Below are positions 1,081 to 23,688 of a DNA stretch of 23,688 nt, piece after piece. A program made the position numbers and the translations under genes. The stretch comes from an uncultured Salinarchaeum sp. Lineage in GTDB: Archaea > Halobacteriota > Halobacteria > Halobacteriales > Salinarchaeaceae. The stretch spans positions 1-23,688 of the forward strand of contig CAZFMU010000007.1 in the NCBI GenBank assembly GCA_964520165.1. The letters run 5' to 3'. Numbering within the stretch: position 1 is the stretch's first letter; every line of letters begins with the position of its first letter. The notes under the pieces were generated by a model. It worked only from the letters and a program-made list of their open reading frames with translations. It did no database searches and had not been told where the DNA came from.

Positions 1081-3060
1081 TCAGGGATGTGTCTCCAACG
1101 CTAATCCTTGATCGTCGATGTAAAACTGCTCCCCGACGCCGTTGCCTTCCAATTGACTGAAGGCCTGACTGATGATGTGTCGGTCAAAGTCAGTGTTCTG
1201 GGCGACTTCCTCAAGCAACACTGTATCTCGTCCGACTTGGTTGATGTACTCTGATGTTATCCAAGCAACGCAGTCTTCAACAGTTTCAGCTTGGACAGCC
1301 CGCTGGAAAATCGAAATGTTCTCTGTGACGATTGGATCGGAGGAGTCATAGATCACTTCACCGCTCTGTAGGTCAACAAGGCAGACGCTTACATGGCGGC
1401 TGTATCGAGTTCTTGCGAGCTCATCCTCAACCACGTGCTGTTTGACCTCGCTAGTCCATCCAGTTGGTGAGGCGACACCAAGAAGATAAGGCACCTCCGT
1501 CTCATGGGCTTCGCGAACTACTCTATTCACGATATGAAGCAAATCGTCCAGATGTGCCGGCTCGGCGTCGAAACCGTGGCGAGCGTGAGCTTCCAGATGC
1601 GAGTGAACGCTCGCTTCGATAATCATCCGTGGGTGGCGGCTGAGTCCGAGGTATCGCTGTTCAGTCACCTCGTATCGTGCTGTCACATTGATCGGGTGCG
1701 TTTCGAGTGTTCCTCCATCTGCCTCCTCAAGCAGATTCTGCATGCGACCGGCTTCATTGCGGTGCTCGTTGTGTCCGTCCCAGTACTGGGAGGTAATGTC
1801 AACCACCTCTGCAGGTAGCTGGAGTGTCTCAAGTTCGTGCATTGTCGTGTCAAACCGACCGATATAATCCATCTCAAATAACCTGGCGGTTTCCGCCGTC
1901 ACAACGTTCTTTCCCTCAATCCCGCCGGTCGTATCGACAGCAGTTTCAATGTCTTCAAGACGGGTTTCGAGGTCGTCTTGGCGATCCTCAAACCGGTCGC
2001 GGGCATGTGCGATCTCCTCACGCTCTTGGCGGAGGCGATCAATCTCGGCTTGGAGTTCAGACCGCTGTTCCTGAAGCCGTTCAAGTTCGTCGGTTACAAC
2101 GTTCGCAGTCGCTTCGGCCACCGGTTCGTGTTCGGCTTCAAGGGCCTCCTGCCGCGCTGACTCCAACTCATCAATCTTGGCTTCCAGTGTCCTCATGAGC
2201 TCCTCTATCTGAGTAATTGATATATCCAACTGATCAACGCCACCAGTCCCAGAAGTATCAACCTCCTCAAGCGCTTCCCGGAGCGCTGCCGTATCGACTG
2301 ACGGCTGTGCAAGTTGACGTTCAATGCGATCAAGCGCCGCATTGAATTCACGCTGTTGTTGGCCAACTTGCTGTTCCAGGGTAGTTTCGAGGTCAGCTAA
2401 CTCTTCCTGAACGGCTGCTTGAATCTGTTCACGCTTTTCAGTCGCATCGGCCACAGCCCCGATCGCTTCCTCAATCTCCTCAACCATATGCTCAAGCCCG
2501 TGCGTTTCGACGTAGAGAAAAAACCCTTCGCGGATGCGATCACGCCGATCTTCATACCGATCAACAAGGCGCTCAATGACATCCTGTTGTACATCTGGAT
2601 GATCAATGAGAGCATCTATGTTGGCGATCTGGGTTGAAGTATACTCCTGAACAAGCTCATAGACTTCTCCATCCATCCGGCGGATGCGCCGCTCAATCTG
2701 CTCCTTGTCAAGCGCGTCAAACTGCTTGTACCGATCAAACTCAACTACTGCCTCCAACTCGGCGTCAATGAAATCATCCTGCATTGGCGGAGGGACATCG
2801 TCATCCGCATAGAACGACGCCGCAATAAGGAGCCGCGCGAGCCGCAGTGAACTCCGGAAATGATCAACCTCGCCGCTCGTAAGAAACTCAGGGCACTCCT
2901 CAAGAAACTCCCAACGCAACTCCTCCTCGTTGGCTTTGATTTCGTTGTATCGCTCGATACGTGAGCGCTCGGGCATACGCCGGAGCGCGGCCAGATCCTC
3001 CGCAAGGATTCGATCGGCCGTGTGTGTGAGGTCGTCAAGCCACGTCTGGCAGTCTGTCAT
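1081..3060 (-). CDS. Large acidic coiled-coil protein (659 aa) with globular N- and C-terminal regions; function unknown
   Basis: Long uninterrupted ORF with halophile-type acidic composition. ATG verified at 3058-3060. The central ~300 aa is heptad-like and rich in E/R/Q/L. The ATG overlaps the stop of upstream ORF 3057..3644 as ATGA, implying co-transcription. No Walker A or other recognisable catalytic motif. Confidence 0.75.
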   Translation of the reverse strand: MTDCQTWLDDLTHTADRILAEDLAALRRMPERSRIERYNEIKANEEELRWEFLEECPEFLTSGEVDHFRSSLRLARLLIAASFYADDDVPPPMQDDFIDAELEAVVEFDRYKQFDALDKEQIERRIRRMDGEVYELVQEYTSTQIANIDALIDHPDVQQDVIERLVDRYEDRRDRIREGFFLYVETHGLEHMVEEIEEAIGAVADATEKREQIQAAVQEELADLETTLEQQVGQQQREFNAALDRIERQLAQPSVDTAALREALEEVDTSGTGGVDQLDISITQIEELMRTLEAKIDELESARQEALEAEHEPVAEATANVVTDELERLQEQRSELQAEIDRLRQEREEIAHARDRFEDRQDDLETRLEDIETAVDTTGGIEGKNVVTAETARLFEMDYIGRFDTTMHELETLQLPAEVVDITSQYWDGHNEHRNEAGRMQNLLEEADGGTLETHPINVTARYEVTEQRYLGLSRHPRMIIEASVHSHLEAHARHGFDAEPAHLDDLLHIVNRVVREAHETEVPYLLGVASPTGWTSEVKQHVVEDELARTRYSRHVSVCLVDLQSGEVIYDSSDPIVTENISIFQRAVQAETVEDCVAWITSEYINQVGRDTVLLEEVAQNTDFDRHIISQAFSQLEGNGVGEQFYIDDQGLALETHP

Positions 3061-3644
3061 GGGTGGTCTGAAGGACTTTGGCTCGCCGCGTATTCGGCAA
3101 GTTCGGTTTCGAAAAACTCCGCAAGAAACGATGGAGCGGGCGGATAACCGGAGATGCGAATCCGGATGTCGACACCGTCCTCTGTCGTCTGCAATTGGTA
3201 CGACGCCTCCGCGCGCCCTTTTTTTGTGTACAGTTCGTACTCGTTACGACTCGCAGACTGGAGGACAGCCTTCTTCTTCGAGAGCACGTATTCAAGAAAG
3301 GACTCAACCGCATCCGCAGATGCATCGATGCTCTCCTCAACAGTGACCAACTGCGGCTCAACGTCGGCGTCAGCCGGCTCAATCCGGTACGTCTCAATCT
3401 GATCTTCAGGAATCTTCGAGAGGAGTCTCTCGTACAACTGCTCATGATTAACACCAGCGGCAAGACGGACGAGTCCGTCTGGGGTTGTAACTTCCCCGTC
3501 GTCCCAGTTGCTGAACAAGTACTCTGCACGCTTGCGCTCGGCGTCTTCCGTATACTCGACGACGTAAAGATATCGCTCGTCGCGACGATTTTCAACCATA
3601 GTGGGTACTTCGGCTGGGGATGGCGGCCGACTGACCAACACCAT
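3057..3644 (-). CDS. Hypothetical acidic protein (195 aa), first gene of a two-gene operon with 1081..3060
   Basis: ATG verified at 3642-3644. A TATA-like 'gttata' lies about 28-33 nt upstream on the minus strand (plus-strand 3672-3679). The stop overlaps the start of the downstream gene by 4 nt. Halophile-type composition. Confidence 0.7.
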   Translation of the reverse strand: MVLVSRPPSPAEVPTMVENRRDERYLYVVEYTEDAERKRAEYLFSNWDDGEVTTPDGLVRLAAGVNHEQLYERLLSKIPEDQIETYRIEPADADVEPQLVTVEESIDASADAVESFLEYVLSKKKAVLQSASRNEYELYTKKGRAEASYQLQTTEDGVDIRIRISGYPPAPSFLAEFFETELAEYAASQSPSDHP

Positions 3645-3804: not shown

Positions 3805-4083
3805 ATGAACTTCACACTCTGGCTCGCGATTGTGTTTGGTGTCAACCTCATTCTTGGGGTTGGCCTCATCATCGGGGTCTTCGGCTTCATGGAACGACAT
3901 GTGTCGCTGGGGGCTACTGGTGGCATTGTAGCCGGGACGGGGTTGATTTACGCGCAGGCGACTTTCGGTGAGCAGATGCTGAAAGTATCTGTTTCCGAGA
4001 TGAAGCTGCTTGTGATTGCCGCGTCCGTTGCCGCCGTAATCGGCGTTGTCGGGACGGTACTTGTTTTGAAGCCGAATCTGTAG
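3805..4083 (+). CDS. Small membrane protein (92 aa, two predicted TM helices)
   Basis: ATG verified at 3805. Hydrophobic segments lie at about residues 4-27 and 68-88. It ends 48 nt upstream of, and on the same strand as, the ESCRT-III-like and Vps4-like genes. Confidence 0.6.
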   Translation: MNFTLWLAIVFGVNLILGVGLIIGVFGFMERHVSLGATGGIVAGTGLIYAQATFGEQMLKVSVSEMKLLVIAASVAAVIGVVGTVLVLKPNL

Positions 4084-4131: not shown

Positions 4132-4782
4132 ATGGAACTTCGAGACTGGGTCAAAGAACGGTTCGGAACAACTGACACGGAAACGCTTATCGACGAAAGC
4201 GTGTACAGCCGTGATAACCTTCGCAAGGACAAAGCAAAGCTTGAGCAAAGCCTTCGACAGTTGGAAAGCGAGATGGATAAGCACGCAAAAAAGTACGAAA
4301 AGTTGCTTCAGAAAGGCTCCGATGCCGATGAGCTCAGCCGCCAGCAGTACGCGCAGAAGGCGAAATTCGAAAAAAAGAAGTACGAAATCAAGAAGAAAAA
4401 GCACAAGGCCGAAAGTATCAAGCTCGGAACAGTTATCTCAATCGAAGGAATGCGCGAAGTGCTGGCAATGCAAGATGGACAGGACTACGAGCTAGATCGC
4501 CTCTTCGATGGCGACCTTGACGCACAGGAGCTCCAGAGTCAGGTCATGGATGAGATGGCCCAGTTCGGGCTAGAGATTGACGACATGAAGCAGGTTCAGG
4601 AGGCACTTGATATCGAGATCATCGATCAGGATCTCGAAACGGGGGTCTCCGAGGAACTTGAGATTATGGAAGAAATGGCAGCAGGTGATATCTCAGAGGA
4701 ACAGATCGACATTGAAGAGAATGTCGACATTGAAGAGGAAGATATCAATCTTAGCGTCAATCAGCCAAGCCGGACACTCTAA
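4132..4782 (+). CDS. ESCRT-III / Snf7-family-like protein (216 aa)
   Basis: About 210 aa, all alpha-helical. The N-terminal half is basic (KFEKKKYEIKKKKHK) and the C-terminal tail is extremely acidic, which is the ESCRT-III charge asymmetry. Segments resemble Snf7-domain helices (LRKDKAKLEQSLRQLESEMDKHAKKYEKLLQKG; MDEMAQFGLEIDDMKQVQEALD). It is followed after 3 nt by a Vps4-like MIT-AAA ATPase. Confidence 0.6.
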   Translation: MELRDWVKERFGTTDTETLIDESVYSRDNLRKDKAKLEQSLRQLESEMDKHAKKYEKLLQKGSDADELSRQQYAQKAKFEKKKYEIKKKKHKAESIKLGTVISIEGMREVLAMQDGQDYELDRLFDGDLDAQELQSQVMDEMAQFGLEIDDMKQVQEALDIEIIDQDLETGVSEELEIMEEMAAGDISEEQIDIEENVDIEEEDINLSVNQPSRTL

Positions 4783-4785
4783 GTT

Positions 4786-5943
4786 ATGTCCCTTGAGCGG
4801 AGTGCGCAGAGGAAACATTTCGAGTCAGAGTATCAGCGATACCGGTATTTAGCCGAACAAGCACGGTCGGAGGGACACGTAGAGAAGGCAGCCCGGTATT
4901 ATCGCCAGTGTGCAAGCGTACTCACGAACTTAGCGGATCTTGAGTCAAGTTCGCGAATCACGCAAGAACGACTTGAACTCGCGCAGAATCTCGTCACAGC
5001 GGCCGATCAACTTGAGACCGATGGGGAGTTGACAAACGAAACGGTCGATAACGAACAAGAACCGGATCCGAAGACGCCTACAGATGAAGCACCTTCCACT
5101 TCCGAGGATCAACCATCTTCAAGCGACGAGGAGCCCTCAGCTACAGCGTATTTATCTGAGCCTCCGTCGCTTACCTTTACGGATGTAGGCGGCATGATAG
5201 AGTTGAAAGAGACACTCAAGGATCGGGTCATTGATCCTCTTGAGCGTCCAGAGTTGTACGAACAGTACGATTTGGGCGTAGTCAATGGCGTGTTGTTATA
5301 CGGCCCTCCTGGAACTGGGAAAACATACATCACGAAAGCCTTAGCCGGTGAACTTGAGTACAATTACATTGAGGCTCGCGCATCTGATCTCACAAGTTCA
5401 CTTGTTGGCGAGGCCGCTGACAACATGGCCGAGTTGTTCAAAGTCGCTAGAAACCACCAGCCGTGCCTCCTCTTTTTCGACGAGATCGACGCGATTGCCG
5501 CTGAACGGAGTGGCGGTGATCAAAAGACGATGAGCGAGAGCCAGATGATCACCCAGTTTTTGACTGAAATGTCAAATACGAAGGGAGAGGACGTGATTGT
5601 CGTCGGGGCAACCAATCTTCCCGATGATATCGACGGGGCGGCTTGGCGTCGGTTCGACGAGCGTATCAAGGTACCACCACCGGATGCCGCAGCACGAGTG
5701 GCAGTACTACGAATCCATCTTCGTGACCGACCGGTTCTGACCGAGCATATCGATTGGGACCATATCAAAGCGCTCACCGATGGATACTCTTCGAGTGATC
5801 TTGAACTCATCGCGGCAACAGCAGCACGCAAGGCGCTCAAGGAAGCTCGGGAGAACGGTGATGTTGTGCCGATCACTCAGGATCACATCGAAACGGCGAT
5901 TGAAGAGACTGACTCAAGTCTACAGGCATGGAATACGTCCTAA
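4786..5943 (+). CDS. Vps4/CdvC-like AAA+ ATPase with an N-terminal MIT domain
   Basis: The N-terminus (EGHVEKAARYYRQCASVLTNLADL) aligns with the Vps4/CdvC MIT three-helix bundle. An acidic S/T/P linker follows. The single AAA domain has Walker A GPPGTGKT, Walker B LLFFDEID, sensor-1 Asn (GATNLPDDID) and an SRH with arginine fingers (AAWRRFDERIKVPPPD), as in Vps4 (AIRRRFERRIYIPLPD). ATG verified at 4786, 3 nt after the stop of the previous gene. Confidence 0.9.
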   Translation: MSLERSAQRKHFESEYQRYRYLAEQARSEGHVEKAARYYRQCASVLTNLADLESSSRITQERLELAQNLVTAADQLETDGELTNETVDNEQEPDPKTPTDEAPSTSEDQPSSSDEEPSATAYLSEPPSLTFTDVGGMIELKETLKDRVIDPLERPELYEQYDLGVVNGVLLYGPPGTGKTYITKALAGELEYNYIEARASDLTSSLVGEAADNMAELFKVARNHQPCLLFFDEIDAIAAERSGGDQKTMSESQMITQFLTEMSNTKGEDVIVVGATNLPDDIDGAAWRRFDERIKVPPPDAAARVAVLRIHLRDRPVLTEHIDWDHIKALTDGYSSSDLELIAATAARKALKEARENGDVVPITQDHIETAIEETDSSLQAWNTS

Positions 5944-6018: not shown

Positions 6019-6735
6019 TTACTGTTTGGCTTCGGTTGTCGCAAGCGCGACAGTAATGTTGTCGCTCCCGCCGTTGTTGTTTGCCTGAGCAATGAGATTA
6101 TCCGCCGCTGCGGACAGTGAGGTCGCATTCGTAACAGTGCGGTAGATCTGCTCATCGCTGACCTCCTCGGAGAGACCGTCAGAACACAGTAGGAGCGTTC
6201 CGGATACCGTATGCTCGTAAAAGTCCGGGTCAATATCTTCATTTGTACCGATCGCCTGCGAGACCACATTCCGCTGTGGATGTGTCTCTGCTTCGGCTTC
6301 GGTAATGTGGCCGGCTTCAACCAGCTGCTGGACAAGCGACTGGTCGGTGGTCACTTGGACAATGTTATCCCCGATATGATAGGCGCGACTATCGCCGACA
6401 TTGGCAATGATGGCCTCCTGCTCATTGATCACAGCCGCCACTAACGTGGTGCCCATCCCACGGTCGCCACCGGCATCTGGATGGCTGCGGACGGCAGTGT
6501 TGGCGGCAGTGATACCGGAAGCGAGGGCTACTTTCCAGTCACCGGTAGTGGTACGAAGCCTTTCCTTGAGCGTAGAGAGCGTCCGTTGACTCGCGACATC
6601 ACCAGCTGCGTGCCCACCCATCCCGTCTGCAACAGCGATTAGACCAACACCGTCAATTTTGACGGCGGTAACAGCGTCCTCGTTGTGTGAGCGCTGTCGT
6701 CCGGTGTCCGTTCGGGTTGCGAAGTGAACGGTCAT
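6019..6735 (-). CDS. PP2C-family (PPM) Ser/Thr protein phosphatase
   Basis: Canonical PPM motifs are present: TDTGRQRSHNED, AVADGMGGHAAGDVAS, DSRAY, LLCSDGL and GGSDNIT. ATG verified at 6733-6735. 238 aa. Confidence 0.9.
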   Translation of the reverse strand: MTVHFATRTDTGRQRSHNEDAVTAVKIDGVGLIAVADGMGGHAAGDVASQRTLSTLKERLRTTTGDWKVALASGITAANTAVRSHPDAGGDRGMGTTLVAAVINEQEAIIANVGDSRAYHIGDNIVQVTTDQSLVQQLVEAGHITEAEAETHPQRNVVSQAIGTNEDIDPDFYEHTVSGTLLLCSDGLSEEVSDEQIYRTVTNATSLSAAADNLIAQANNNGGSDNITVALATTEAKQ

Positions 6736-6826
6736 GATTCGATAGCTGCAGGTATTAACGTGAGTCTGCCTTGTGACTGGAAGTGTGTAACCCGAGTATT
6801 TGATTGAGAATGATCACGATAGTCCA

Positions 6827-7528
6827 TTACTCTTGAGGAAGTGACGCACCACAATACGGACAGAAGGCTGCGTCAGAGCTAATTTCTTCGCCGCACTGTG
6901 GACAGAATTGCTGCGTTGACGACGACTGTGCATTCGCCGCTGCGGCGACTTCCTCCGGGCTCTGTGTCTCAACTCGCCCCGAGTCGGATCCATCGGCGAT
7001 ATCTGAGCGGTTGACAACACTATCTTCGACGGTCGTTGACCGATCGATACTATCGCCCATGACGACATCCCCGTCTCCCCGATGGACAACGTTGTTTTCG
7101 ACTCTAGCTTCCGAGACTGTTTCCAAATGAAATGAGGTCTGATACCCGATCGTGATCGTCGCATCATTCGATACCGTCTGAAGGTGACCTTGTGGAACGT
7201 CATGGGTCGTTCCCTGCGACTCAACGGTCACACCGTTGGAGTTCGCCTGGTTGCGAATTTCAATCGTCTGGTCCTGCGGTACCACGACGACCGGAGCGAG
7301 ACCCTCTTTCTTTCGCGATACCGTCACATCGCCAATACCGAGATCAATGATATCTGAAGGGGTTTCAGCGATAATGGTCGTTCCGTCGCCCGAGTCACGA
7401 TAGAGTTCGATACGTCCGTCTATCGGGAGTTTTCCGCCGTCCCCGGAGGCAACCGACAGATATCCTTTCATACGTATTGTGTGAGTTAATTGGAATTCGT
7501 CGTTCGGTTGAGGTTGTTGGGTAGCCAA
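6827..7528 (-). CDS. FHA-domain (phosphothreonine-binding) protein with a C-terminal Cys4 zinc ribbon
   Basis: The N-terminal region matches the FHA signature: G-R, then S-R (VTVSRKKEG), then N-G (ANSNGVTV). The C-terminus is CPQCG-x10-CPYCG. The track start at 7526-7528 is TTG. An in-frame ATG at 7469-7471 (MKGYLSV...) is the more likely true start. The architecture resembles Sulfolobus ArnA, which also combines a zinc finger with an FHA domain. Confidence 0.75.
   Translation of the reverse strand: MATQQPQPNDEFQLTHTIRMKGYLSVASGDGGKLPIDGRIELYRDSGDGTTIIAETPSDIIDLGIGDVTVSRKKEGLAPVVVVPQDQTIEIRNQANSNGVTVESQGTTHDVPQGHLQTVSNDATITIGYQTSFHLETVSEARVENNVVHRGDGDVVMGDSIDRSTTVEDSVVNRSDIADGSDSGRVETQSPEEVAAAANAQSSSTQQFCPQCGEEISSDAAFCPYCGASLPQE
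7002..7040. repeat. DNA-level copy of a shared C-terminal tail module (encodes ...TTVEDSVVNRSDI...), paralogous to 9019..9047 and more weakly to 8671..8724
   Basis: tctgagcggttgacaacactatcttcgac (7002-7030) matches tctgagcggttaatgacactatcacttac (9019-9047) at 23 of 29 nt. Both lie within different genes. Confidence 0.45.
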
Positions 7529-7613: not shown

Positions 7614-8378
7614 CTAGTTACGAAGGTACAGTCGCCGTACTCGCTCGGCCAGTTGACCGATCCGCTTGCTACGTTGTGGATCCAGCTGGTCAGATGCTAT
7701 CGCAGCAGCTTTGAGTTGCTGCTGTTGGGCCTCTAATTCTGACTGAACGTCCTCGTACGCGTCATCATCAACCGGAGTATCTTTGACAAATGAGTGGACC
7801 TCATCAAGTCGTTTACGACAGGCCTCCGCTGAATCTTCGCAGGCTCGCTCAAGATGTTCGGTTAGGGAGACGGCTAAGTAATCCGCAGAGGCATCCTGGA
7901 GCCGATCAACGGACTCGGTTGCGGCGAGATCGGCCAATCCGTCCTGCGCCATCTTGCGTTCTGTCTGTCGAGTCGCATCGTCAATGACGGTGTGGTAAGT
8001 TTCTTCAATCTCCTCGCGAAGCGTGTCAGAGTCTACTCTGGCTGCGTAGGTTTGCAAGCGATCTAAGGCCCGTTCTCGTTCGTCTGAGCGGTTGCCATCT
8101 TGTGCTACATCACAGTGCACGGAGATGGCTGTTGGGACCACCCCGGGAGCTGACTGGCCAACAAGCTTGTCAAGCTGCGATTGAGCAAGTGTGCGCTCCT
8201 CTTCGTAAGTCGCATCCCTAGCTACACGCGCAAGTGTTCGCCCGATCGCTGCACGCTGTTGATCATCAACCTCAGAGTAGAGGTCGCCAAGACGCTCAAG
8301 AGCCTCTTTGCGATCGGAGGAATACGTCGATTCACGAGCCTGACGCCGCAGTTCACTTACTGAGTCATGAAGAGCCAT
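7614..8378 (-). CDS. Hypothetical alpha-helical repeat protein (255 aa; HEAT/PBS-like repeats)
   Basis: The ORF track extends to 8603, but the first 75 residues are non-acidic and hydrophobic. The first ATG that yields a halophile-type protein (MALHDSVSELRRQ...) is at 8376-8378 and was verified. Helical motifs of the form ALERLGDLY / ALDRLQTYA repeat. Confidence 0.6.
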   Translation of the reverse strand: MALHDSVSELRRQARESTYSSDRKEALERLGDLYSEVDDQQRAAIGRTLARVARDATYEEERTLAQSQLDKLVGQSAPGVVPTAISVHCDVAQDGNRSDERERALDRLQTYAARVDSDTLREEIEETYHTVIDDATRQTERKMAQDGLADLAATESVDRLQDASADYLAVSLTEHLERACEDSAEACRKRLDEVHSFVKDTPVDDDAYEDVQSELEAQQQQLKAAAIASDQLDPQRSKRIGQLAERVRRLYLRN

Positions 8379-8439: not shown

Positions 8440-8997
8440 CTACGGTGGGGTCGATTCACCACAGTCCGGACATTGATCTGCCGCAGACGGGAGTTCTGCT
8501 CCACAGAATATGCAGTATTGGTTGTCCTCAGAGTCACGATCGGCAGGAGCATTAGATGTTGAACTCCCGCTATAGCTATTATCCGAGGACACAGTAATCT
8601 CATCCTTGTTGTCGGTGACCGTCATATTAGAAGCAACGCTATCGGTAATGGTGGTTTCCTCGGCTTGAGTATTAATATTCGATTTATTGACGACGCTGTC
8701 CTCAATAACCGTGCTGTGATCGTTCACTGTAGTGTGTTCATCAGTTTTCGTAGTGCTGTTGTCTACTCGCGTGATGTCGGTCTGCTTAACCGTCTTGTCC
8801 TGCTGACCGCTAACGATATCTCCGCTGACGTGAGTTACATCATCTGTAGTCGAGTCGAGAATATTGGCGGCAAGTTTATCCACCGTGTCATTATTACTGT
8901 TGGTCTCAACGGGGGCTGATGGGTCCCCCTCAGAACATTTTGGACATTCAGCTCCTGTATATACCTCGTTGTGTTGTTCGCAGTACGGCATAGTCAC
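8440..8997 (-). CDS. Zinc-ribbon protein with a Thr/Ser/Asp-rich low-complexity core
   Basis: N-terminal C-x15-CPKC and C-terminal CIFCG-x10-CPDCG. The middle is extremely T/S/D/N-rich and carries the shared EDSVVNKSNI tail motif. The track start at 8995-8997 is GTG and overlaps the upstream stop as GTGA. An ATG two codons downstream (8989-8991) is an alternative start. Confidence 0.65.
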   Translation of the reverse strand: MTMPYCEQHNEVYTGAECPKCSEGDPSAPVETNSNNDTVDKLAANILDSTTDDVTHVSGDIVSGQQDKTVKQTDITRVDNSTTKTDEHTTVNDHSTVIEDSVVNKSNINTQAEETTITDSVASNMTVTDNKDEITVSSDNSYSGSSTSNAPADRDSEDNQYCIFCGAELPSAADQCPDCGESTPP

Positions 8998-10157
8998 TCG
9001 TTCGTATTGTCGTCAACGTCTGAGCGGTTAATGACACTATCACTTACTTCCGTGCTCTCGTCGTTTACCTCGGTGCTCTGATCAATTTCGGTTATGCTTT
9101 GATCAACCGCGGCAATTTCAGTCGTGTCGACGGTTTTGTCCTGAGACCCGACAACCACGTCACCGTCAATAGTAGTATCACCTCCAAGCTCATCGAGACT
9201 CGTGATACCGGCGTATCTGAACTCTCCAATCGACGGCGGATCCTTACGTGTCGATTCAATGGCATCCTCGAACATGTTCCGGATGGCAGCGTAGTGATCG
9301 TCAGGGAGCTCGTTGACTGTCCGCCAGGCCCGATCAGCCACTTTTCCATCGCCGGCATCGGTGATGTCAACTGAGTACAAGCCCTGCTCCCAGACCGCGT
9401 CAATATCGAAAACCCAGAGCCCCACGGCATCAATATTACTATTTGATTTGATATGTTCGAATAAGTGTGGGGTCAAGAGCCCGACGCAGTCAGCAATTCG
9501 AATAGAACCGGTCATCGATCGAATGGTAGGATTTACGACCGCTACGTTCGCGCCTAGTGTGATATCTCCCGCAGCACTGACTGAAAATGCAAATAGGTCC
9601 GACGCTTCGATGTCCCCCTCCGAGTACACATCGCCGAGAATAACTGTCCGTGCGTTCGTCCGAAATGCGTCGGTTGCGTGCACCGAGCCGTATACGACAG
9701 TTGGACGCTCGACTGTGATATGCGCTCCAATTAAGTCACCATAGATCGCGACTGGCTGAGCTTCCCAGTCGTCAAAGGTTGATGCAGGAGCCACAATATC
9801 TATTTGCCCCTTTGAAATCACAGAGCCAGCAATACGCGCCCCGAGAGTAGACGCTTCATTAGCCGCCGGGTGAGCCGCCCCGCCGTGCTCAATAGCGACA
9901 CGATCACGGCCGAATATGTCACCGCTGACCTGTACACCGTACTTACAGTCAACTTCGGCGGCATAGATACCGATTGCCTCAGGCGGATTATATACCGACC
10001 CCTTTTCGAGAGTCACTTGCCAGTTGAGTTGGCGAAACGCGTTTTCCCGTGGAACGAGTGCCTCCTCGCACGTTTGATCAGCCTTGACAGTTGCAAAATT
10101 CGTGTTGTCTGTTTCGACTTTGTCCGACGTGATTGCTCCCTGAAGTTTGTCAGGCAC
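8994..10157 (-). CDS. Bactofilin-like beta-helix (polymer-forming cytoskeletal) domain protein with a Thr/Asp-rich tail
   Basis: The central ~170 aa consist of tandem short hydrophobic/Gly repeats of the bactofilin (DUF583) type: VQVSGDIFGRDRVAIEHG, ARIAGSVISKGQIDIV, VAIYGDLIGAHITVE, TVILGDVYSEGDIEASD and FSVSAAGDITLGANVAVV. The GTG start at 10155-10157 overlaps the upstream stop by 8 nt, and there is no in-frame ATG for about 210 codons. The C-terminus carries the shared DSVINRSDV motif. Confidence 0.6.
   Translation of the reverse strand: MPDKLQGAITSDKVETDNTNFATVKADQTCEEALVPRENAFRQLNWQVTLEKGSVYNPPEAIGIYAAEVDCKYGVQVSGDIFGRDRVAIEHGGAAHPAANEASTLGARIAGSVISKGQIDIVAPASTFDDWEAQPVAIYGDLIGAHITVERPTVVYGSVHATDAFRTNARTVILGDVYSEGDIEASDLFAFSVSAAGDITLGANVAVVNPTIRSMTGSIRIADCVGLLTPHLFEHIKSNSNIDAVGLWVFDIDAVWEQGLYSVDITDAGDGKVADRAWRTVNELPDDHYAAIRNMFEDAIESTRKDPPSIGEFRYAGITSLDELGGDTTIDGDVVVGSQDKTVDTTEIAAVDQSITEIDQSTEVNDESTEVSDSVINRSDVDDNTNE
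9019..9047. repeat. Second DNA-level copy of the shared tail module (encodes ...SDSVINRSDV...)
   Basis: See 7002..7040. Confidence 0.45.
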
Positions 10158-11148
10158 GTGCGGTCACCTCCGCGGTGTCCTCGGTTGTTGTAGCGTCTGT
10201 TGTCCTCTGTTTGTGATTGCCTTCTGCCTCAATCTCGTACGTTCGTAGTGCCTCAACAAATCGATCCAACGCGATATCTTCCTCTATAAGAAACTGGGGA
10301 TCGACATATGCACTGTCATCGCGGCTAGCAAGCGCATCACGCACCTCATCCTGTGCAACATACGACCGTACTGCATCAGCCATTTTGCTGTAGCCGTGTA
10401 CGGGATGCTCTCGGAGGTAGTCTCGGTATGGTTGGGAACGAGTTGGGGATTCGACATCATCAGAACGCCCTAAAATGGAATAAACGCGGAGTTCTTCGCC
10501 GTCATCTGTCTCAATGCCAACGACCCAAAAGGGAACTGTTATCTGCGCGGTATCACTCATTGTTGGGAGATCCGTCTGGAGTGACGCAATCGTATCTGCG
10601 GTCGCGGAGCGGTCATCAAGGAACTGATCAATCTGTTCGAAGTAGTTATTCCGCGCAGAGAGAATAGCATCAATACGATCACGATAGGTCTCATTTGTCG
10701 TGTTAGCAAGATTTGACGACTGACTGGCGACTGTTGAACGAGCCTCACGGATGTGATCAAACTCATCGTTAACTGTCTTGAAGGTATCACCGTGGCCGCC
10801 GATCGAATTCAAAAACCGATTTTTTAGACGCTTGATACTCCCGCGGTAGTCATCAAGCACCTCTTTGACGCGGTCTTCGTACTCCTGTCGCTTGCGTTCA
10901 ACCTCTTCTCTAAGTTGATCTTTGAGATCTTCGATTGCCTGACGTTCGGCCGTTGCTTTCTTGTGCTCAACATCACGAATTTGATGTTTGAGTTGTTTGA
11001 CCTCGTCGCTAAGCTGATCAACAGCACTGTTTGTCTCTCGGATTTCGCGTTTGAGATCATCAATCTGATCCGCAACAGCATCGCCTGCGGCCCGTCCGAT
11101 GCGGTGTTCGTCTACGTTTACTGTGACGTCCTGCTTGTCAGACATCAT
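10150..11148 (-). CDS. Hypothetical coiled-coil protein (332 aa)
   Basis: ATG verified at 11146-11148 (MMSDKQ). It overlaps the upstream gene's stop as ATGA. The N-terminal ~100 aa is heptad-like and E/R/K/Q-rich. The C-terminal half is mixed alpha/beta. Confidence 0.7.
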   Translation of the reverse strand: MMSDKQDVTVNVDEHRIGRAAGDAVADQIDDLKREIRETNSAVDQLSDEVKQLKHQIRDVEHKKATAERQAIEDLKDQLREEVERKRQEYEDRVKEVLDDYRGSIKRLKNRFLNSIGGHGDTFKTVNDEFDHIREARSTVASQSSNLANTTNETYRDRIDAILSARNNYFEQIDQFLDDRSATADTIASLQTDLPTMSDTAQITVPFWVVGIETDDGEELRVYSILGRSDDVESPTRSQPYRDYLREHPVHGYSKMADAVRSYVAQDEVRDALASRDDSAYVDPQFLIEEDIALDRFVEALRTYEIEAEGNHKQRTTDATTTEDTAEVTARA

Positions 11149-12692
11149 AGATCACCCAGCTGCTGCTCAATCTTGCGAGCCGTATCATAATCTGACTTGA
11201 TTTCGAAGTAGCGTTGCTCAGCGTCATCTTTGATTTGCTCGTATTGCGTGAGATCGATCATCTTCTGTTCTTTTGTCTGCCGAATCTCCTCGGCCTCCTG
11301 CTCAAGATCTTCAACGCTGTCCATGATCGGATCACGGAATGCATAGTAGAGGCTCCGCCATACCTCGCCGAAAAGTGCGCCACTATCAGCAACCGCAACG
11401 GGATCAACTGATCCGTGGACATCGCAGTAGCCTTGCTGGCCAAGGTCGTCAAGTCGGTTGTACGCACGCCTAAGTTCATCGTCAAGTTCAGGGATAGCTG
11501 CGGCAATGTCATCACGGATCTGGCCGGTGAAGTCCGACTCAGCACCACGATTGAGATCGGAGTCGCTGAGGGCCATGCCGAGACTCCCACTTTCAGCGCT
11601 TAGGATCTCGTCGACAAGATTGAGCTCGTCACGGATCGTCTCGATCCGATCTTCAAGACACTGTGGACAGACCTGCTTTTTCCCTGCAGTAGTGATCTGG
11701 TTGGCGTGATCGTCGTAGTGCGCCTCAACACGCTGTTGATTCGTCCGAAGGCGGGTCACTAGCTCCGTCGTAATCTCTTCCACACGGTCGCGACTCGCCT
11801 GCGCCTGCTCAAGCATATCGCCGCTCACCGCCTGTTCCTCAACGCCACGAATATCATCTACGGTCTCCTCACACTCGTTAAGCTGCTGACGAACCGATAC
11901 CTCTGGAATATCACGAGAAGGAGCCAAGAGCGAGTTACGCGATAGTTGTCTTATACTTTGTGCCACTTGGTTGTTTGCATGAACTGCTGCAGTAATCGTA
12001 TCACGTTCAATATTGCCTGCAACAGCGGCCATCGAATCAATCTGGTTGATGATCGGCTGCTCAAGACGGCGGTGGTCAGTAGCGTCCGGCGCGAACTGGG
12101 TAGCAACCGACGGATCAATGATAGATTCCTTACCGAAGGCCTCGTCATACTGTTGTTTGTAGGCAACAACTTCTTGTTGATTATCAAACAACAGTTCAGA
12201 GTCAATATATGCAAGTTCAAGATTTGTTTTAGGGGCAGTGTTCAGCCCATCGAAGATCATGTGCTGATCCTGGTAAGGGATCAAATAGAGAGGAACCCCT
12301 ATTTGTGAAACGAACGAAACGGTTCCATCTGGCTCGTTCGTCTCAAGCTTCGATCGCTGGGTGAGGATTAGCTCTTTCGCATCTTGATACTTACTAAATG
12401 CGTAGATACCGACACCAAGCGCAGCGACGAGACCTATACTGGCAAGGATCAATGCTTCCCCGGCCAAACCAATAATGATAAGCAGTATACCACCGGCCAC
12501 CCCACCGCCGCCGAGTTGTTGCATGCGCCGCTGTCGGGATTCAGCCTCAGTAATTGTATCCTCATACCGTTTCTGTCGGTCGAAGTAGCTGCCTGCAGCG
12601 TCGGCAAACGCCATGGCAAGTACTTCTGTTCGAGCGCGTTCATGCGGTATCCGTTCCCCAGCGTCTACCATTCCCGGAGCTTGATATGACAT
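11145..12692 (-). CDS. Membrane protein with an N-terminal 2-TM hairpin and a long helical cytoplasmic region (515 aa)
   Basis: The ORF track extends to 12779, but the first ATG giving a halophile-type N-terminus (MSYQAPGMVDAG...) is at 12690-12692 and was verified. Hydrophobic segments: GVAGGILLIIIGLAGEALILASIGLVAALGVGIYAF. It heads a run of four tightly coupled genes with overlapping start/stop codons (12692 to 8440). Confidence 0.7.
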   Translation of the reverse strand: MSYQAPGMVDAGERIPHERARTEVLAMAFADAAGSYFDRQKRYEDTITEAESRQRRMQQLGGGGVAGGILLIIIGLAGEALILASIGLVAALGVGIYAFSKYQDAKELILTQRSKLETNEPDGTVSFVSQIGVPLYLIPYQDQHMIFDGLNTAPKTNLELAYIDSELLFDNQQEVVAYKQQYDEAFGKESIIDPSVATQFAPDATDHRRLEQPIINQIDSMAAVAGNIERDTITAAVHANNQVAQSIRQLSRNSLLAPSRDIPEVSVRQQLNECEETVDDIRGVEEQAVSGDMLEQAQASRDRVEEITTELVTRLRTNQQRVEAHYDDHANQITTAGKKQVCPQCLEDRIETIRDELNLVDEILSAESGSLGMALSDSDLNRGAESDFTGQIRDDIAAAIPELDDELRRAYNRLDDLGQQGYCDVHGSVDPVAVADSGALFGEVWRSLYYAFRDPIMDSVEDLEQEAEEIRQTKEQKMIDLTQYEQIKDDAEQRYFEIKSDYDTARKIEQQLGDL

Positions 12693-22665: not shown

Positions 22666-23688
22666 TTACAGATGTTCATTAAGCGCATCTCGGAAATGAA
22701 TAACTGTATCAAACCTTTCTGATGGGTTACTATCCAGCGCCTTTTGAATGACTTCCTCAATACCCGCATCGGAATTCACAGACGGAGTTGAATGTGAGTG
22801 ACTTGGGGGTGATCCGGTTAAAGCCTCATATGTAGTCGCTCCCAGACGGTAAATGTCTGCTTGTTCTATCTTTGGGCTCTCAGTCGCCGTGGGTAACTGG
22901 TACGGGTCACGACGTGGAACAAGTTGATCCAATATCCCACGGAGCGTTACGCGCATGTCGTCATCAACTAGAATGGATTCGGGTGTGAGTGCCTCATATA
23001 CTCCGCCGTACCGCTGAACGTGATGAACAGCGTCGCAAGATTTGATTATCGTTTTGATTACCTGCGTCTCGGTGAACTCATCAACGCGGTCTGACAGCGA
23101 AGCGGAAGTAGCTGGCTCTACGGCTGCCCAAGGTAAGGGTTCTCTACCATGTGCATGGACAGTCAAAAGATCGGGATGGGCGTCCATCTCAGCCCACAGC
23201 CTAATGTGCTCTGAAATCTGATCTATTTGGTCATTTGTGAGTGTCTCCGTCTTTTTTCTTGAGGGCTGAATTACCCAGACAGTCGTATTCTCGGCTGATG
23301 CACTTAGGATCTCAATACCGTCGGTGCTAATAATGCTATCCTCTATATTGATATCATCATATCCGTTGATATCAAGTGTTGGAGATATTCTGGAATTTAC
23401 TGCTGTTTCTTTCCGGGGGTTTCTAGGATTACTCCTAGACCCATTCGCATTATTATCACTATCCGATGATGTCGCGAGCTGATATCCTAAATAGCCCGCA
23501 CCGATGGTTGCCAAACTTCCTCCCGCGAGCACCACTGGATTCGTTGTCAAATTTTTCGCTTGACTGAAAAACAACATAGGGGCGCCTGTACTATTACCAG
23601 GTTCTCTCTGGGTGGTATCTGATTGTTGAGTTCTGGATGTAGTTCCATCAGATCCATCGGGGTGAGACTCAGACGAATCTCCTGTGGT
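22666..23688 (-). CDS. Degenerate kinase-like (pseudokinase) membrane protein in lower-GC sequence; the ORF is open to the window edge and probably partial
   Basis: Recognisable kinase-fold remnants aligned to the neighbouring kinases: RLWAEMDAHPDLLTV, EPLPWAAVEPA and ADIYRLGATTYEALTGSPP. The conserved Lys, the catalytic loop (YEALTPESIL) and DFG (RGI) are all lost. A TM helix (VVLAGGSLATIGAGYLGYQLA) precedes the domain. The first ATG is at 23575-23577, but the reading frame continues without a stop for 37 more S/T/D-rich codons to position 23688. Confidence 0.65.
   Translation of the reverse strand, partial: TTGDSSESHPDGSDGTTSRTQQSDTTQREPGNSTGAPMLFFSQAKNLTTNPVVLAGGSLATIGAGYLGYQLATSSDSDNNANGSRSNPRNPRKETAVNSRISPTLDINGYDDINIEDSIISTDGIEILSASAENTTVWVIQPSRKKTETLTNDQIDQISEHIRLWAEMDAHPDLLTVHAHGREPLPWAAVEPATSASLSDRVDEFTETQVIKTIIKSCDAVHHVQRYGGVYEALTPESILVDDDMRVTLRGILDQLVPRRDPYQLPTATESPKIEQADIYRLGATTYEALTGSPPSHSHSTPSVNSDAGIEEVIQKALDSNPSERFDTVIHFRDALNEHL

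What the first reader, a model, noticed from the sequence alone, without database searches (positions are those of the whole stretch)
6019..7528. PP2C phosphatase plus FHA-zinc-ribbon protein: a complete Ser/Thr phospho-signalling toolkit next to the kinases
Kinase, PP2C and FHA triads are the core of bacterial STK signalling (T6SS PpkA/PppA/Fha and mycobacterial PknB/PstP/FhaA). In Sulfolobus the same triad (ArnA, ArnC/D, PP2A) controls the archaellum. Here the FHA protein also carries a Cys4 zinc ribbon, as ArnA does, and is the penultimate gene of a long minus-strand gene string. The PP2C gene ends the string and is convergent with the Vps4-like gene.
Basis: partly seen in the sequence, partly recalled or inferred. 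Interest (0 to 1): 0.65.

Follow-up and report, generated by a model that had tools for sequence, protein, structure and literature searches.

The report
Phospho-switch genes of a haloarchaeal ESCRT locus
These two genes encode a real PP2C protein phosphatase and a very divergent FHA (phospho-threonine reader) protein with a zinc ribbon, and together they are the phosphorylation module of a haloarchaeal ESCRT-like membrane-remodelling gene cluster that comparative genomics already described in 2024.

Summary
The minus-strand gene at 6019-6735 is an intact Stp1/PstP-type PP2C phosphatase with every metal-binding Asp present. The minus-strand gene at 6827-7471 (the ORF runs on to a TTG at 7528) encodes an N-terminal FHA-fold domain, a disordered linker and a C-terminal Cys4 zinc ribbon.

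The context is not Arn-like. This is the "Halo_FHA" archaeal ESCRT system of Makarova et al. 2024: Vps4, an ESCRT-III-like protein, arCOG08177/09748, kinases and a phosphatase. In this window the family's FHA and CdvA-like halves are two adjacent genes, and the FHA carries a zinc ribbon instead.

Two things look new. A D-x-S-T-x-V-x-DSVVNRS tail motif is shared by three consecutive proteins. A bactofilin-like beta-helix protein sits in the same operon.

Verdict: a correct call, a new member of a known kind, of moderate interest.

The parts
6019..6735 (-). PP2C (PPM) Ser/Thr phosphatase, 238 aa. It is soluble and consists of the catalytic domain only. It is the last gene of the minus-strand string.
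   Evidence: Pfam PF00481 and PF13672. NCBIfam NF033484 at 243.2 bits against a cutoff of 230. PstP 1txo at E 1.3e-39. E19-D20, D37-G38, D115, D186 and D225 align with the PstP metal ligands.
6827..7471 (-). FHA-linker-zinc-ribbon protein, 214 aa, in the arCOG13166 family. The maximal ORF runs to TTG 7528.
   Evidence: Homologues and gene calls start at ATG 7471. It is 34.7% identical (E 1e-36) to the L001 protein, whose database cluster carries WP_136686774.1. Makarova 2024 list that accession as arCOG13166.
7112..7471 (-). FHA-fold domain (residues 1-120), all-beta, 12 strands
6998..7045 (-). Linear motif D-R-S-T-T-V-E-D-S-V-V-N-R-S-D-I (residues 143-158) in the disordered linker. It is also present in the next two upstream proteins but one.
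   Evidence: Regex hits occur only in g214, g183 and g387. D150, N154, R155 and S156 are invariant and T146 is at least 90% conserved in 36 homologues. The linker has pLDDT below 50.
6851..6904 (-). Cys4 zinc ribbon (C190, C193, C204, C207)
   Evidence: PF13240 E 5.1e-10 and PF13248 E 4.4e-07. Cysteine positions.
7614..8378 (-). 254-aa helical protein. Its C-terminal roughly 80 residues are the 'CdvA-like' half of arCOG13166.
   Evidence: Residues 172-253 match the C-terminal half of Haloglomus WP_144263615.1 (36% identity, E 3e-11). The N-terminal half of that protein matches the FHA domain here (E 7e-12).
8440..8991 (-). 183-aa Thr/Ser-rich protein with an N-terminal C-x2-H...C-x2-C knuckle, the DSVVNKS motif and a C-terminal zinc ribbon. 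It is an FHA-less paralogue of the C-terminal half of FHA-ZnR proteins and a candidate kinase substrate.
   Evidence: T 13.1% and S 12.0%, with Cys at 4/16/19/160/163/174/177. It is similar to the C-half of the L001 FHA-ZnR protein (E 2e-7). Most FHA-ZnR homologues carry the CHCC knuckle themselves.
8994..10157 (-). 387-aa beta-helix (bactofilin-like core) protein with a disordered C-terminal tail that ends in the DSVINRS motif
10150..11145 (-). 331-aa coiled-coil protein, translationally coupled to its neighbours
   Evidence: Only coiled-coil-type weak Pfam hits. Its coding region overlaps g387's by 8 nt and g515's by 1 nt. Conserved in L010.
11145..12692 (-). 515-aa protein with a hydrophobic (likely membrane) segment and a helical remainder
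   Evidence: Gene call in L003. Orthologues in L009 and L010 at 48-51% identity.
13005..14837 (-). SPFH/Band-7 protein (610 aa) with two N-terminal and one C-terminal zinc ribbons. It is the first gene of the string.
   Evidence: PF01145 E 4.4e-9 and DZR E 1.9e-16. Orthologues sit next to the FHA and Vps4 genes in L001, L008, L009 and L010.
4786..5943 (+). Vps4/CdvC-like AAA+ ATPase (385 aa) with a weak MIT-like N-terminus. It is convergent with the PP2C gene.
   Evidence: PF00004 E 3.3e-37. NCBIfam CdvC E 1.3e-49, below cutoff. MIT is the top hit for residues 1-101 at E 0.011. It is 53-59% identical to the AAA genes beside the arCOG13166 genes in Halorhabdus amylolytica and Haloglomus irregulare. 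A Vps4 from each species is in the paper's Vps4 tree list.
4132..4782 (+). 216-aa coiled-coil protein directly upstream of Vps4. It is presumed to be ESCRT-III-like.
   Evidence: Its position and size match the arCOG07402 genes upstream of Vps4 in H. mukohataei. Orthologues occur in every related locus. There is no Snf7 Pfam hit, so the assignment is inferred.
3805..4083 (+). [quoted passage not shown]
   Evidence: Conserved in L001, L002, L008, L009 and L010.
3057..3644 (-). 195-aa protein, an orthologue of the gene placed like arCOG08177 in related loci
   Evidence: 55-60% identical to the L001, L002, L009 and L010 genes upstream of the arCOG09748-like gene. The gene order matches H. mukohataei.
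1081..3060 (-). 659-aa coiled-coil protein, arCOG09748-like ESCRT system protein
   Evidence: 45-51% identical over its full length to the L001, L002 and L009 genes. Haloglomus WP_144263620.1 is listed as arCOG09748, four accession numbers from Vps4, which matches the gene order in L002.
15146..17353 (+). Membrane Hanks-type Ser/Thr kinase with a Tat-like signal and an extracellular PQQ beta-propeller. Its catalytic motifs are intact.
   Evidence: Pkinase E 1.3e-34 and PQQ_2 E 2.1e-52. The AVK, HLDLKPAN and DWG motifs are present.
17419..19614 (+). PQQ beta-propeller protein with a pseudokinase domain
   Evidence: Pkinase E 5.4e-13. K is replaced by L, HxD by HGA, LKPxN by LQPAV and DWG by GWE.
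20959..22476 (+). Ser/Thr kinase (505 aa) with an N-terminal kinase domain and a hydrophobic C-terminal region. Its catalytic motifs are intact.
   Evidence: Pkinase E 2.3e-33. AIK, HLDLKPEN and DWG are present.
22666..23577 (-). Degenerate kinase-like protein (pseudokinase)
   Evidence: Pkinase E 7.3e-4, below cutoff. The catalytic K, D and DFG equivalents are all missing.

Best explanation
The two genes are the eraser and the presumed reader of a Ser/Thr-phosphorylation switch built into a haloarchaeal ESCRT-like membrane-remodelling system, the Halo_FHA type of Makarova et al. 2024.

Shown:
- Gene 6019-6735 is a complete Stp1/PstP-type PP2C with all metal ligands.
- Gene 6827-7471 is an arCOG13166-family protein with an FHA fold, a disordered linker and a Cys4 zinc ribbon.
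- In sister loci the same FHA domain is fused to a CdvA-like helical domain. Here that domain is the C-terminus of the adjacent upstream gene (7614-8378).
- The surrounding genes are Vps4, a presumed ESCRT-III-like protein, arCOG08177/09748-like proteins, an SPFH-zinc-ribbon protein, two catalytically intact kinases and two pseudokinases. One of each pair carries an extracellular PQQ propeller.
- The gene set recurs in other haloarchaea.

Inferred mechanism:
1. The membrane kinases sense something outside the cell through the PQQ propellers.
2. They phosphorylate Thr residues in disordered, Thr/Ser-rich tails of system proteins. The best candidates are the shared D-x-S-T-x-V-x-DSVVNRS motif in the FHA protein itself, in the 183-aa zinc-ribbon protein and in the bactofilin-like protein.
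3. The FHA domain docks on these phospho-sites using the conserved Ser52/Arg53/Asn79 surface.
4. Through the CdvA-like partner it couples them to ESCRT-III and Vps4.
5. The PP2C removes the phosphates and resets the assembly.
For: PP2C identity and ligands.

FHA fold.

Sequence bridge to canonical FHA:
- The family profile retrieves P0120 and P0122 at E 2.5e-4 and 3.6e-4 in 1.84 billion proteins.
- Both pass PF00498 at about 27 bits against a cutoff of 20.7.

Family identity:
- The L001 orthologue's cluster carries WP_136686774.1. The L002 relative is WP_144263615.1.

Fission and fusion of the FHA and CdvA-like halves.

Synteny of FHA with PP2C:
- They are adjacent in the window and in L007.
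- PP2C follows the FHA-CdvA fusion directly in L002.
- They share a locus in L008 and L009.

Other support:
- Kinases with intact catalytic motifs.
- The Ser, the next Arg and the Asn of the pThr-binding loops are conserved in 100%, 90% and 82% of 114 family sequences.
- The motif is restricted to these proteins and conserved in two unrelated families.
Against: - Pfam FHA fails for this protein and for 25 relatives.
- The canonical phosphate-binding Arg is Glu here and is not conserved in the family. The canonical His was never among the residues seen at its position. Canonical pThr binding is therefore unproven.
- AF2 leaves the motif disordered and undocked.
- The conserved Thr of the motif has no conserved +3 residue, which is the usual FHA specificity position.
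- PP2C and kinases are not universal. The Halorhabdus amylolytica locus has no PP2C within 10 kb. The Haloplanus pelagicus locus has neither PP2C nor a kinase within 10 kb.
- The ESCRT-III assignment of the 216-aa protein rests on position and orthology, not on a profile hit.
- There is no experimental work on any Halo_FHA system in the searched literature.
Confidence: 0.7

Rival explanations
1. The FHA-fold domain is a degenerate, phosphorylation-independent interaction module, as the FHA-like domains of secretion-system proteins are thought to be. It scaffolds the SPFH, CdvA-like and ESCRT proteins regardless of phosphorylation. The kinases and PP2C act on other targets.
For: - The canonical Arg is replaced by Glu, the His is absent, and the Arg position is unconserved across 114 family members.
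- PF00498 is not matched. The only weak clan hit among 25 members is Yop-YscD_cpl at E 0.025.
- Some loci have the FHA gene but no PP2C or kinase nearby.
Against: - Ser52 is conserved in 100%, Arg53 in 90% and Asn79 in 82% of the family. These lie in the loops that bind phosphate in canonical FHA domains.
- The loop is strongly basic (S-R-K-K).
- The family is repeatedly linked to kinases and PP2C, including a direct FHA-kinase fusion, P0057, and PP2C immediately downstream in three loci.
Confidence: 0.25
2. This is an Arn-like transcriptional switch. The zinc-ribbon-FHA protein binds DNA and represses genes until its partner is phosphorylated or dephosphorylated, as ArnA/ArnB do in Sulfolobales.
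For: - ArnA also combines a Cys4 ribbon, a long flexible linker and an FHA domain (PMC10470591).
Against: - The domain order is reversed.
- No vWA (ArnB-like) protein is in the window, and there are no archaellum or pilus genes.
- ArnA keeps Arg134, Ser148 and Asn170, whereas the Arg is lost here.
- The same FHA domain is fused to a CdvA-like domain, a kinase or a protease in relatives and sits inside a conserved SPFH/ESCRT gene set.
- All top FHA hits score nearly alike, so ArnA ranking first says little.
Confidence: 0.06
3. The locus is a conflict or defence, or membrane-damage response, system. Kinase, FHA and PP2C signalling would trigger ESCRT-III/SPFH membrane repair or abortive infection on phage attack.
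For: - Family relatives carry TIR-FHA, nSTAND-NTPase-FHA and FHA-trypsin fusions.
- The H. mukohataei locus lies on record NC_013201.1, which from my own recall, not a tool result, is that strain's plasmid.
- PADLOC gives domain-level hits for the PP2C (candidate PDC-M21C), the kinase (PD-T4-6) and the AAA ATPase (IetA).
- Bacterial PspA with SPFH is a membrane-stress system (cited in PMC11188069).
Against: - The PADLOC hits are generic domain similarities. The FHA, CdvA-like, beta-helix and SPFH proteins hit nothing.
- The locus is chromosomal in Haloplanus pelagicus.
- No nuclease, NADase or other effector is in the window.
Confidence: 0.08

Closest known systems
Halo_FHA archaeal ESCRT system, FHA family arCOG13166 (Makarova et al. 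2024, mBio 15:e00335-24; PMC10936438)
   Same: - The FHA family is the same. The orthologue's cluster carries WP_136686774.1 and relative WP_144263615.1 is also in their arCOG13166 list.
- The partners are the same: Vps4, an ESCRT-III-like gene upstream of it, an arCOG08177-like plus arCOG09748-like gene pair, membrane Ser/Thr kinases and a PP2C-type phosphatase.
   Different: - The paper describes the family as FHA fused to a CdvA-like domain. Here the FHA is fused to a DSVVNRS linker plus a zinc ribbon, and the CdvA-like domain sits in the neighbouring gene.
- The text I could read links SPFH only to the Meth_adaptin type. It does not mention the beta-helix protein, the shared tail motif or the loss of the canonical Arg and His. 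I could not see their Figure 3B.
ArnA/ArnB with ArnC/ArnD kinases and PP2A (Sulfolobales archaellum and DNA-damage regulation)
   Same: It also uses kinase, phosphatase and FHA logic in an archaeon. ArnA combines an FHA domain with a Cys4 zinc ribbon and a flexible linker. Its FHA domain is among the best structural matches.
   Different: The ribbon is N-terminal in ArnA. ArnA needs the vWA protein ArnB. Its phosphatase is PP2A/PPP-type, not PP2C. Its output is transcription. ArnA keeps the Arg/Ser/Asn triad. None of these holds here.
Mycobacterial PknB / PstP / FhaA / GarA and corynebacterial OdhI
   Different: Those are bacterial and regulate cell-wall synthesis or the TCA cycle. PstP is membrane-anchored, whereas this PP2C is the catalytic domain only. 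Those FHA domains keep the canonical Arg and His (own knowledge).
T6SS PpkA / PppA / Fha1 switch
   Same: A kinase, PP2C and FHA triad controls assembly of a membrane-associated machine that is recycled by an AAA+ ATPase. PppA (6jkv) matches the PP2C at E 2e-29.
   Different: The machine, the domain of life and the FHA architecture all differ. The resemblance is an analogy only.
Chlamydia CT664 FHA domain (PDB 3gqs)
   Different: It keeps S-R-x-H and is an unrelated bacterial protein. It has no zinc ribbon and no ESCRT context.

Membership tests
PPM/PP2C Ser/Thr phosphatases (Stp1/PstP type) | Profile match above the curated threshold | tested here: met
   PF00481 at 58.8 bits (cutoff 20.3) and PF13672 at 51.2 bits (cutoff 24). 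NF033484 at 243.2 bits (cutoff 230).
PPM/PP2C Ser/Thr phosphatases (Stp1/PstP type) | Metal-binding acidic residues. In PstP, by the literature numbering I recall, these are D25, D38/G39, D191 and D229, plus third-metal D118. | tested here: met
   In the HMMER alignment to 1txo and 2cm1, E19-D20, D37-G38, D115, D186 and D225 align with them.
PPM/PP2C Ser/Thr phosphatases (Stp1/PstP type) | Mn2+/Mg2+-dependent phospho-Ser/Thr hydrolysis | not testable with these tools
   This needs an enzyme assay.
FHA domain (Pfam PF00498, SMAD/FHA clan) | Sequence-profile match | tested here: not met
   - No PF00498 hit for this protein at E up to 0.1 or for any of 25 relatives at E up to 10.
- The profile against PDB sequences finds nothing.
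- Single-sequence phmmer gives only E 0.054 to 3gqs.
- There is an indirect link. The family profile reaches P0120 and P0122, and both pass PF00498.
FHA domain (Pfam PF00498, SMAD/FHA clan) | Eleven-stranded beta-sandwich FHA fold | tested here: met
   [not shown]
FHA domain (Pfam PF00498, SMAD/FHA clan) | Conserved pThr-binding residues: Arg of G-R, Ser and His of S-x-x-H, Asn of N-G | tested here: inconclusive
   Ser52 (100% of the family), Arg53 (90%) and Asn79-Gly80 are present. The G-R position is A35-E36 (E 41%, R 25% in the family). The His position is K55, and no His is among the seven commonest residues there.
FHA domain (Pfam PF00498, SMAD/FHA clan) | Phospho-threonine peptide binding | not testable with these tools
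   This needs ITC or fluorescence polarisation with pThr peptides.
arCOG13166 / Halo_FHA ESCRT system (Makarova et al. 2024) | FHA domain homologous to listed arCOG13166 members | tested here: met
   34.7% identity over 245 aa (E 1e-36) to the L001 protein, and 31% (E 7e-12) to the L002 protein. The L001 protein's cluster carries WP_136686774.1 and the L002 protein is WP_144263615.1. Both accessions are in the paper's table.
arCOG13166 / Halo_FHA ESCRT system (Makarova et al. 2024) | CdvA-like helical domain fused C-terminally to the FHA domain | tested here: not met
   The C-terminus here is a disordered linker plus a zinc ribbon. The CdvA-like segment is in the adjacent gene 7614-8378 (E 3e-11 to the C-half of WP_144263615.1). 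About 22 of 88 family representatives share the ribbon architecture, including one accession the paper lists.
arCOG13166 / Halo_FHA ESCRT system (Makarova et al. 2024) | Neighbourhood with Vps4 and an upstream ESCRT-III gene | tested here: met
   The AAA ATPase at 4786-5943 has a weak MIT-like N-terminus. It is 53-59% identical to the AAA genes beside the arCOG13166 genes of the two listed species, and a 216-aa coiled-coil gene lies directly upstream. Clade membership was not tested with a tree. The ESCRT-III identity is inferred from position and orthology only.
arCOG13166 / Halo_FHA ESCRT system (Makarova et al. 2024) | Optional partners: arCOG08177, arCOG09748, Ser/Thr kinase and phosphatase | tested here: met
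   The 195-aa and 659-aa genes are orthologous to the L001 and L002 pairs. The order matches H. mukohataei. Kinases. PP2C.
ArnA/ArnB motility-repression module | N-terminal zinc ribbon plus C-terminal FHA with an Arg/Ser/Asn triad | tested here: not met
   The order is reversed (FHA 1-120, ribbon 190-207) and the Arg is replaced by Glu. The ArnA features are from PMC10470591.
ArnA/ArnB motility-repression module | Partner vWA-domain protein (ArnB) and an archaellum or pili regulon | tested here: not met
   No vWA hit in any of the 18 larger window ORFs scanned with Pfam.

The most novel reading that the evidence does not exclude
An Arg-less, His-less clade of FHA domains reads a dedicated phospho-code, the conserved tail motif D-x-S-T-x-V-x-D-S-V-V-N-R-S. 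That motif is shared by the FHA protein itself, a Thr-rich zinc-ribbon protein and a bactofilin-like beta-helix protein. Through it, kinases with extracellular PQQ-propeller sensors would trigger assembly of a combined bactofilin-like, SPFH and ESCRT-III/Vps4 membrane-remodelling machine in haloarchaea, and the PP2C would act as the off-switch. This would be the first defined phospho-degron-like docking motif for an archaeal ESCRT system. It would also be a non-canonical mode of FHA-phosphate recognition, with Ser-Arg-Lys-Lys replacing Arg and His.
Probability: 0.15. Interest if true: 0.7.

Novelty: new member of a known kind. Interest (0 to 1): 0.35.

Why it matters
ESCRT systems outside the TACK and Asgard archaea are known only from comparative genomics. 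Nobody has shown what they do or how they are switched on.

This locus offers a compact, testable set of writer, reader and eraser. It has two active kinases, an FHA protein and a PP2C. It also has obvious candidate substrates and a conserved candidate docking motif.

It shows too that standard annotation misses the FHA domain. RefSeq calls the orthologue only a 'zinc ribbon domain-containing protein'. Phospho-signalling in haloarchaea is therefore probably under-counted. One cited paper even states that FHA proteins are conserved only in Crenarchaeota among archaea.

The basic finding is already published, so its value lies in confirmation and refinement rather than discovery.

Tried and rejected
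1. Pfam FHA on the protein and on 25 relatives gave no hit. A family profile against PDB sequences gave no hit either. Sequence profiles alone would have wrongly refuted the FHA call. The fold search and intermediate sequences were needed.

2. I considered invariant R25 (the Y-R motif) as the phosphate-binding Arg and rejected it. It aligns with the end of strand beta2 of 3gqs. By my reading of FHA topology, that is the end of the sandwich away from the binding loops. I could not inspect the model coordinates to confirm this.

3. Arn-type membership was rejected. There is no vWA partner, the domain order is reversed, and the context is ESCRT.

4. PADLOC defence models gave only generic domain hits.

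5. Pfam Snf7 for the 216-aa protein and CdvA for the 254-aa protein gave no hits. Those names rest on orthology and the paper.

6. The supplementary files of the ESCRT paper were searched for a picture of the Halo_FHA locus. The figure is not held as text, so I cannot say whether SPFH or the zinc ribbon is drawn there.

7. I looked for a TATA box upstream of the PP2C start. A TTAATA lies only 18-23 nt from the ATG, which is too close to claim a leaderless promoter, so I make no claim.

8. The bacterial promoter and terminator scanner was not used because it does not apply to archaea.
Full report
**1. What is at 6019-7528**

The window looks haloarchaeal: its proteins are acidic and GC is about 53%. 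It is identical in gene content to contig CAJOTU010000002.1 of assembly GCA_905333215.1.

Two minus-strand ORFs fill the interval: 6019..6735 (238 aa) and 6827..7528 (233 aa, TTG start). All 36 close homologues, and the database gene call, begin at the internal ATG at 7471 with M-[RKQ]-[GA]. The real product is therefore 214 aa.

The two genes end a run of eight minus-strand genes:

| Gene | Coordinates | Product |
|---|---|---|
| SPFH-zinc-ribbon | 13005-14837 | 610 aa |
| g515 | 11145-12692 | 515 aa |
| g331 | 10150-11145 | 331 aa |
| g387 | 8994-10157 | 387 aa |
| g183 | 8440-8991 | 183 aa |
| g254 | 7614-8378 | 254 aa |
| FHA-ZnR (g214) | 6827-7471 | 214 aa |
| PP2C | 6019-6735 | 238 aa |

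The four middle genes overlap or nearly abut, with gaps of -1, -8 and +2 nt. The last three are spaced by 61, 142 and 91 nt. The PP2C stop is 75 nt from the stop of the convergent Vps4-like gene.

**2. The PP2C**

- It passes Pfam PP2C and PP2C_2.
- It passes the NCBIfam equivalog for Stp1/IreP phosphatases at 243.2 bits against a cutoff of 230.
- It matches M. tuberculosis PstP at E 1.3e-39 over essentially its full length, and then Stp1, tPphA and PppA.
- In that alignment the RxxNED Asp (D20), D37-G38, D115, D186 and D225 coincide with the PstP metal ligands.

The protein is the catalytic domain only, with no membrane anchor.

**3. The FHA-zinc-ribbon protein**

The zinc ribbon is unambiguous: PF13240 at E 5e-10, with CPQC...CPYC at residues 190-207.

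The FHA domain is not detectable by profile.
- PF00498 misses this protein and all 25 relatives scanned.
- One relative hits the clan member Yop-YscD_cpl at E 0.025.
- A family profile finds nothing among PDB sequences.
- The only sequence hint is phmmer E 0.054 to the FHA domain of Chlamydia CT664, 3gqs.

Structure settles the question.
- With a 36-sequence alignment, AlphaFold gives per-block pLDDT of 86-96 over residues 1-120. The model is an all-beta domain of 12 strands, followed by a disordered linker (125-184) and the ribbon.
- Foldseek ranks ArnA's FHA domain first, and 28 of its top 30 hits are FHA domains.

There is also a sequence bridge. An exhaustive profile search of 1.84 billion representatives finds only 90 clusters. 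Two of them, P0120 and P0122, at E 2.5e-4 and 3.6e-4, themselves pass PF00498.

The domain is therefore a genuine but very divergent FHA.

**4. The binding-site residues**

The 3gqs alignment and the spacing to the Ser loop place the canonical Gly-Arg at A35-E36. S-x-x-H falls at S52-R53-K54-K55, and N-G at N79-G80.

Across 114 family sequences:

| Position | Residue frequencies |
|---|---|
| S52 | S 100% |
| D48 | D 98% |
| R53 | R 90% |
| N79 | N 82% |
| R25 | R 93% |
| 36 (canonical Arg) | E 41%, R 25%, otherwise D/K/A/Q/T |
| 55 (canonical His) | no His among the seven commonest residues |

The conserved R25 aligns with the end of strand beta2, away from the binding loops.

The Ser, the following Arg and the Asn are kept. 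These contact the phosphate and the peptide in known FHA domains; ArnA's triad is Arg134/Ser148/Asn170. The Arg and the structural His are gone. Phospho-threonine binding is plausible, since the S-R-K-K loop is very basic, but it is unproven.

**5. What system this is**

Makarova et al. 2024 (mBio 15:e00335-24) define a 'Halo_FHA' clade of archaeal ESCRT systems.
- Its core is Vps4 and ESCRT-III plus a distinct FHA family, arCOG13166, described as FHA fused to a CdvA-like domain.
- Some loci also carry arCOG09748, arCOG08177, Ser/Thr kinases and phosphatases.
- Their H. mukohataei table shows the same parts list, including a 240-aa PTC1-type phosphatase.

A genome scan with the FHA profile found two loci, in Halorhabdus amylolytica (L001) and Haloglomus irregulare (L002).
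- An exact look-up places the L001 protein in the cluster that carries WP_136686774.1 and identifies the L002 protein as WP_144263615.1.
- Both accessions are in the paper's arCOG13166 list.
- A Vps4 from each of the two species is in the paper's Vps4 tree list.

The window's proteins are orthologous to the neighbours in L001 and L002:

| Window protein | Identity to L001/L002 |
|---|---|
| Vps4 | 53-59% |
| 216-aa coiled-coil protein | 42-46% |
| 92-aa protein | 50-59% |
| 195-aa protein | 56-57% |
| 659-aa protein | 45% |

The Vps4 N-terminus has MIT as its best, sub-threshold, Pfam hit at E 0.011.

The family to which the finding belongs is therefore already published as an ESCRT component.

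**6. What differs here**

The Haloglomus protein is FHA plus a helical C-terminal domain. Its N-half matches the window's FHA domain (E 7e-12). Its C-half matches residues 172-253 of the upstream 254-aa protein (E 3e-11).

In the window the two halves of arCOG13166 are therefore separate, adjacent genes, and the FHA half carries a linker and a zinc ribbon instead.

Of 88 representatives, about 22 have this ribbon architecture, usually with an extra C-x2-H...C-x2-C knuckle. Most of the rest are 200-250 aa with a helical tail.

Rarer relatives fuse the domain to a kinase, a trypsin-like protease, a TIR domain or an nSTAND NTPase.

**7. Conservation of the pairing**

- PP2C lies directly downstream of the FHA gene in the window, in L007 and in L002.
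- It lies in the same locus in L008 and L009.
- SPFH-ZnR, the 254-aa protein, Vps4, the ESCRT-III-like protein and PQQ-kinases recur in L008 and L009. L007 has a PQQ-kinase beside the pair.
- The pairing is not universal. L001 has no PP2C within 10 kb. The chromosomal Haloplanus pelagicus locus keeps the whole structural gene set with no PP2C or kinase within 10 kb.

**8. Writers and candidate substrates**

Two kinases keep the catalytic Lys, HxD-LKPxN and DWG motifs: 15146-17353, which has a Tat-like signal and a PQQ propeller, and 20959-22476. The proteins at 17419-19614 and 22666-23577 have lost all of these motifs and are pseudokinases.

The 183-aa protein is 13% Thr and 12% Ser.

A 14-16-residue motif, D-x-S-T-x-[VI]-x-D-S-V-[VI]-N-[RK]-S, occurs once each in three proteins:
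- the FHA protein's linker;
- the 183-aa protein;
- the extreme C-terminal tail of the 387-aa protein.

It occurs nowhere else in the window. It is repeated one to three times in FHA-ZnR homologues and is conserved in the unrelated 387-aa family.

I propose, as inference only, that this motif is the kinase target and FHA docking site. A rival reading is that it forms short beta-helical turns. One orthologue's repeat region gives a weak Bactofilin hit at E 0.035.

**9. Verdict**

RefSeq names the orthologue only 'zinc ribbon domain-containing protein'.

Its interpretation as a kinase, PP2C and FHA toolkit is right in outline. However, the Arn analogy is superficial, the FHA lacks part of the canonical signature, and the biological frame is the ESCRT system.

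Because that system, its FHA family and its link to kinases and phosphatases were published in 2024, this is a new member of a known kind. It adds some unreported details: the split architecture, the Arg/His loss, the shared motif and the beta-helix partner. No experimental study of any such locus turned up.

Noticed in passing
window 6998-7045, 8674-8721, 9015-9062 (all minus strand): A shared linear motif, D-x-S-T-x-[VI]-x-D-S-V-[VI]-N-[RK]-S-[DN]-[IV], sits in disordered regions of three genes in the same string: the FHA-ZnR, 183-aa and 387-aa proteins. It occurs nowhere else in the window. It is repeated one to three times in FHA-ZnR homologues and conserved at the C-terminal tail of the 387-aa family. 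An extra ORF in L008 (2-388) carries it too. Its function is unknown. It is a candidate phospho-docking site.
   Followed up: partly
[not shown]
   Followed up: partly
window 8440-8991 (minus): The 183-aa protein looks like an FHA-less copy of the C-terminal half of FHA-ZnR proteins. It has a C-x2-H-x11-C-x2-C knuckle at its N-terminus, a Thr/Ser-rich linker with the motif, and a zinc ribbon. The window's FHA-ZnR protein is unusual in its subfamily in lacking that knuckle.
   Followed up: partly
window 17419-19614 (+) and 22666-23577 (minus): Two of the four kinase-like genes are pseudokinases. The catalytic Lys, the HxD Asp, LKPxN and the DFG-equivalent Asp are all replaced. One of them keeps a full extracellular PQQ propeller and sits directly after an active paralogue.
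   Followed up: partly
window 13005-14837 (minus); L001, L008, L009, L010: An SPFH/Band-7 protein with three zinc ribbons is a conserved partner of this ESCRT-type locus in five loci. The text of the 2024 paper that I could read links SPFH only to the Methanobacteriales 'Meth_adaptin' type.
   Followed up: partly
relatives P0065, P0067, P0041, P0057, P0122: The same divergent FHA domain is fused elsewhere to a TIR domain (with or without the CdvA-like tail), a trypsin-like protease, a Hanks kinase and an nSTAND NTPase. TIR and STAND fusions hint at a conflict or defence role for some family members.
   Followed up: no
L010 (Haloplanus pelagicus chromosome CP098518.1, 2220284-2241429): The whole structural gene set is conserved here in the same order, but with no PP2C or kinase within 10 kb. 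The set comprises the arCOG08177/09748-like pair, the 92-aa, ESCRT-III-like and Vps4 genes, and the SPFH, 515, 331, 387, 183 and 254-aa genes. The 261-aa gene after Vps4 matches only the motif-plus-ribbon tail of the FHA-ZnR protein, not its FHA domain, by BLAST.
   Followed up: no
L008 6490-7468: The PP2C homologue in this metagenomic locus aligns only to residues 9-183 and is followed by a fragment matching the C-terminal lobe of the kinases. This may be a decayed or chimeric gene.
   Followed up: no
window 7472-7528 (minus): The ORF extends 19 codons upstream of the conserved ATG to a TTG. This extension is absent from all homologues and should not be annotated as coding.
   Followed up: yes
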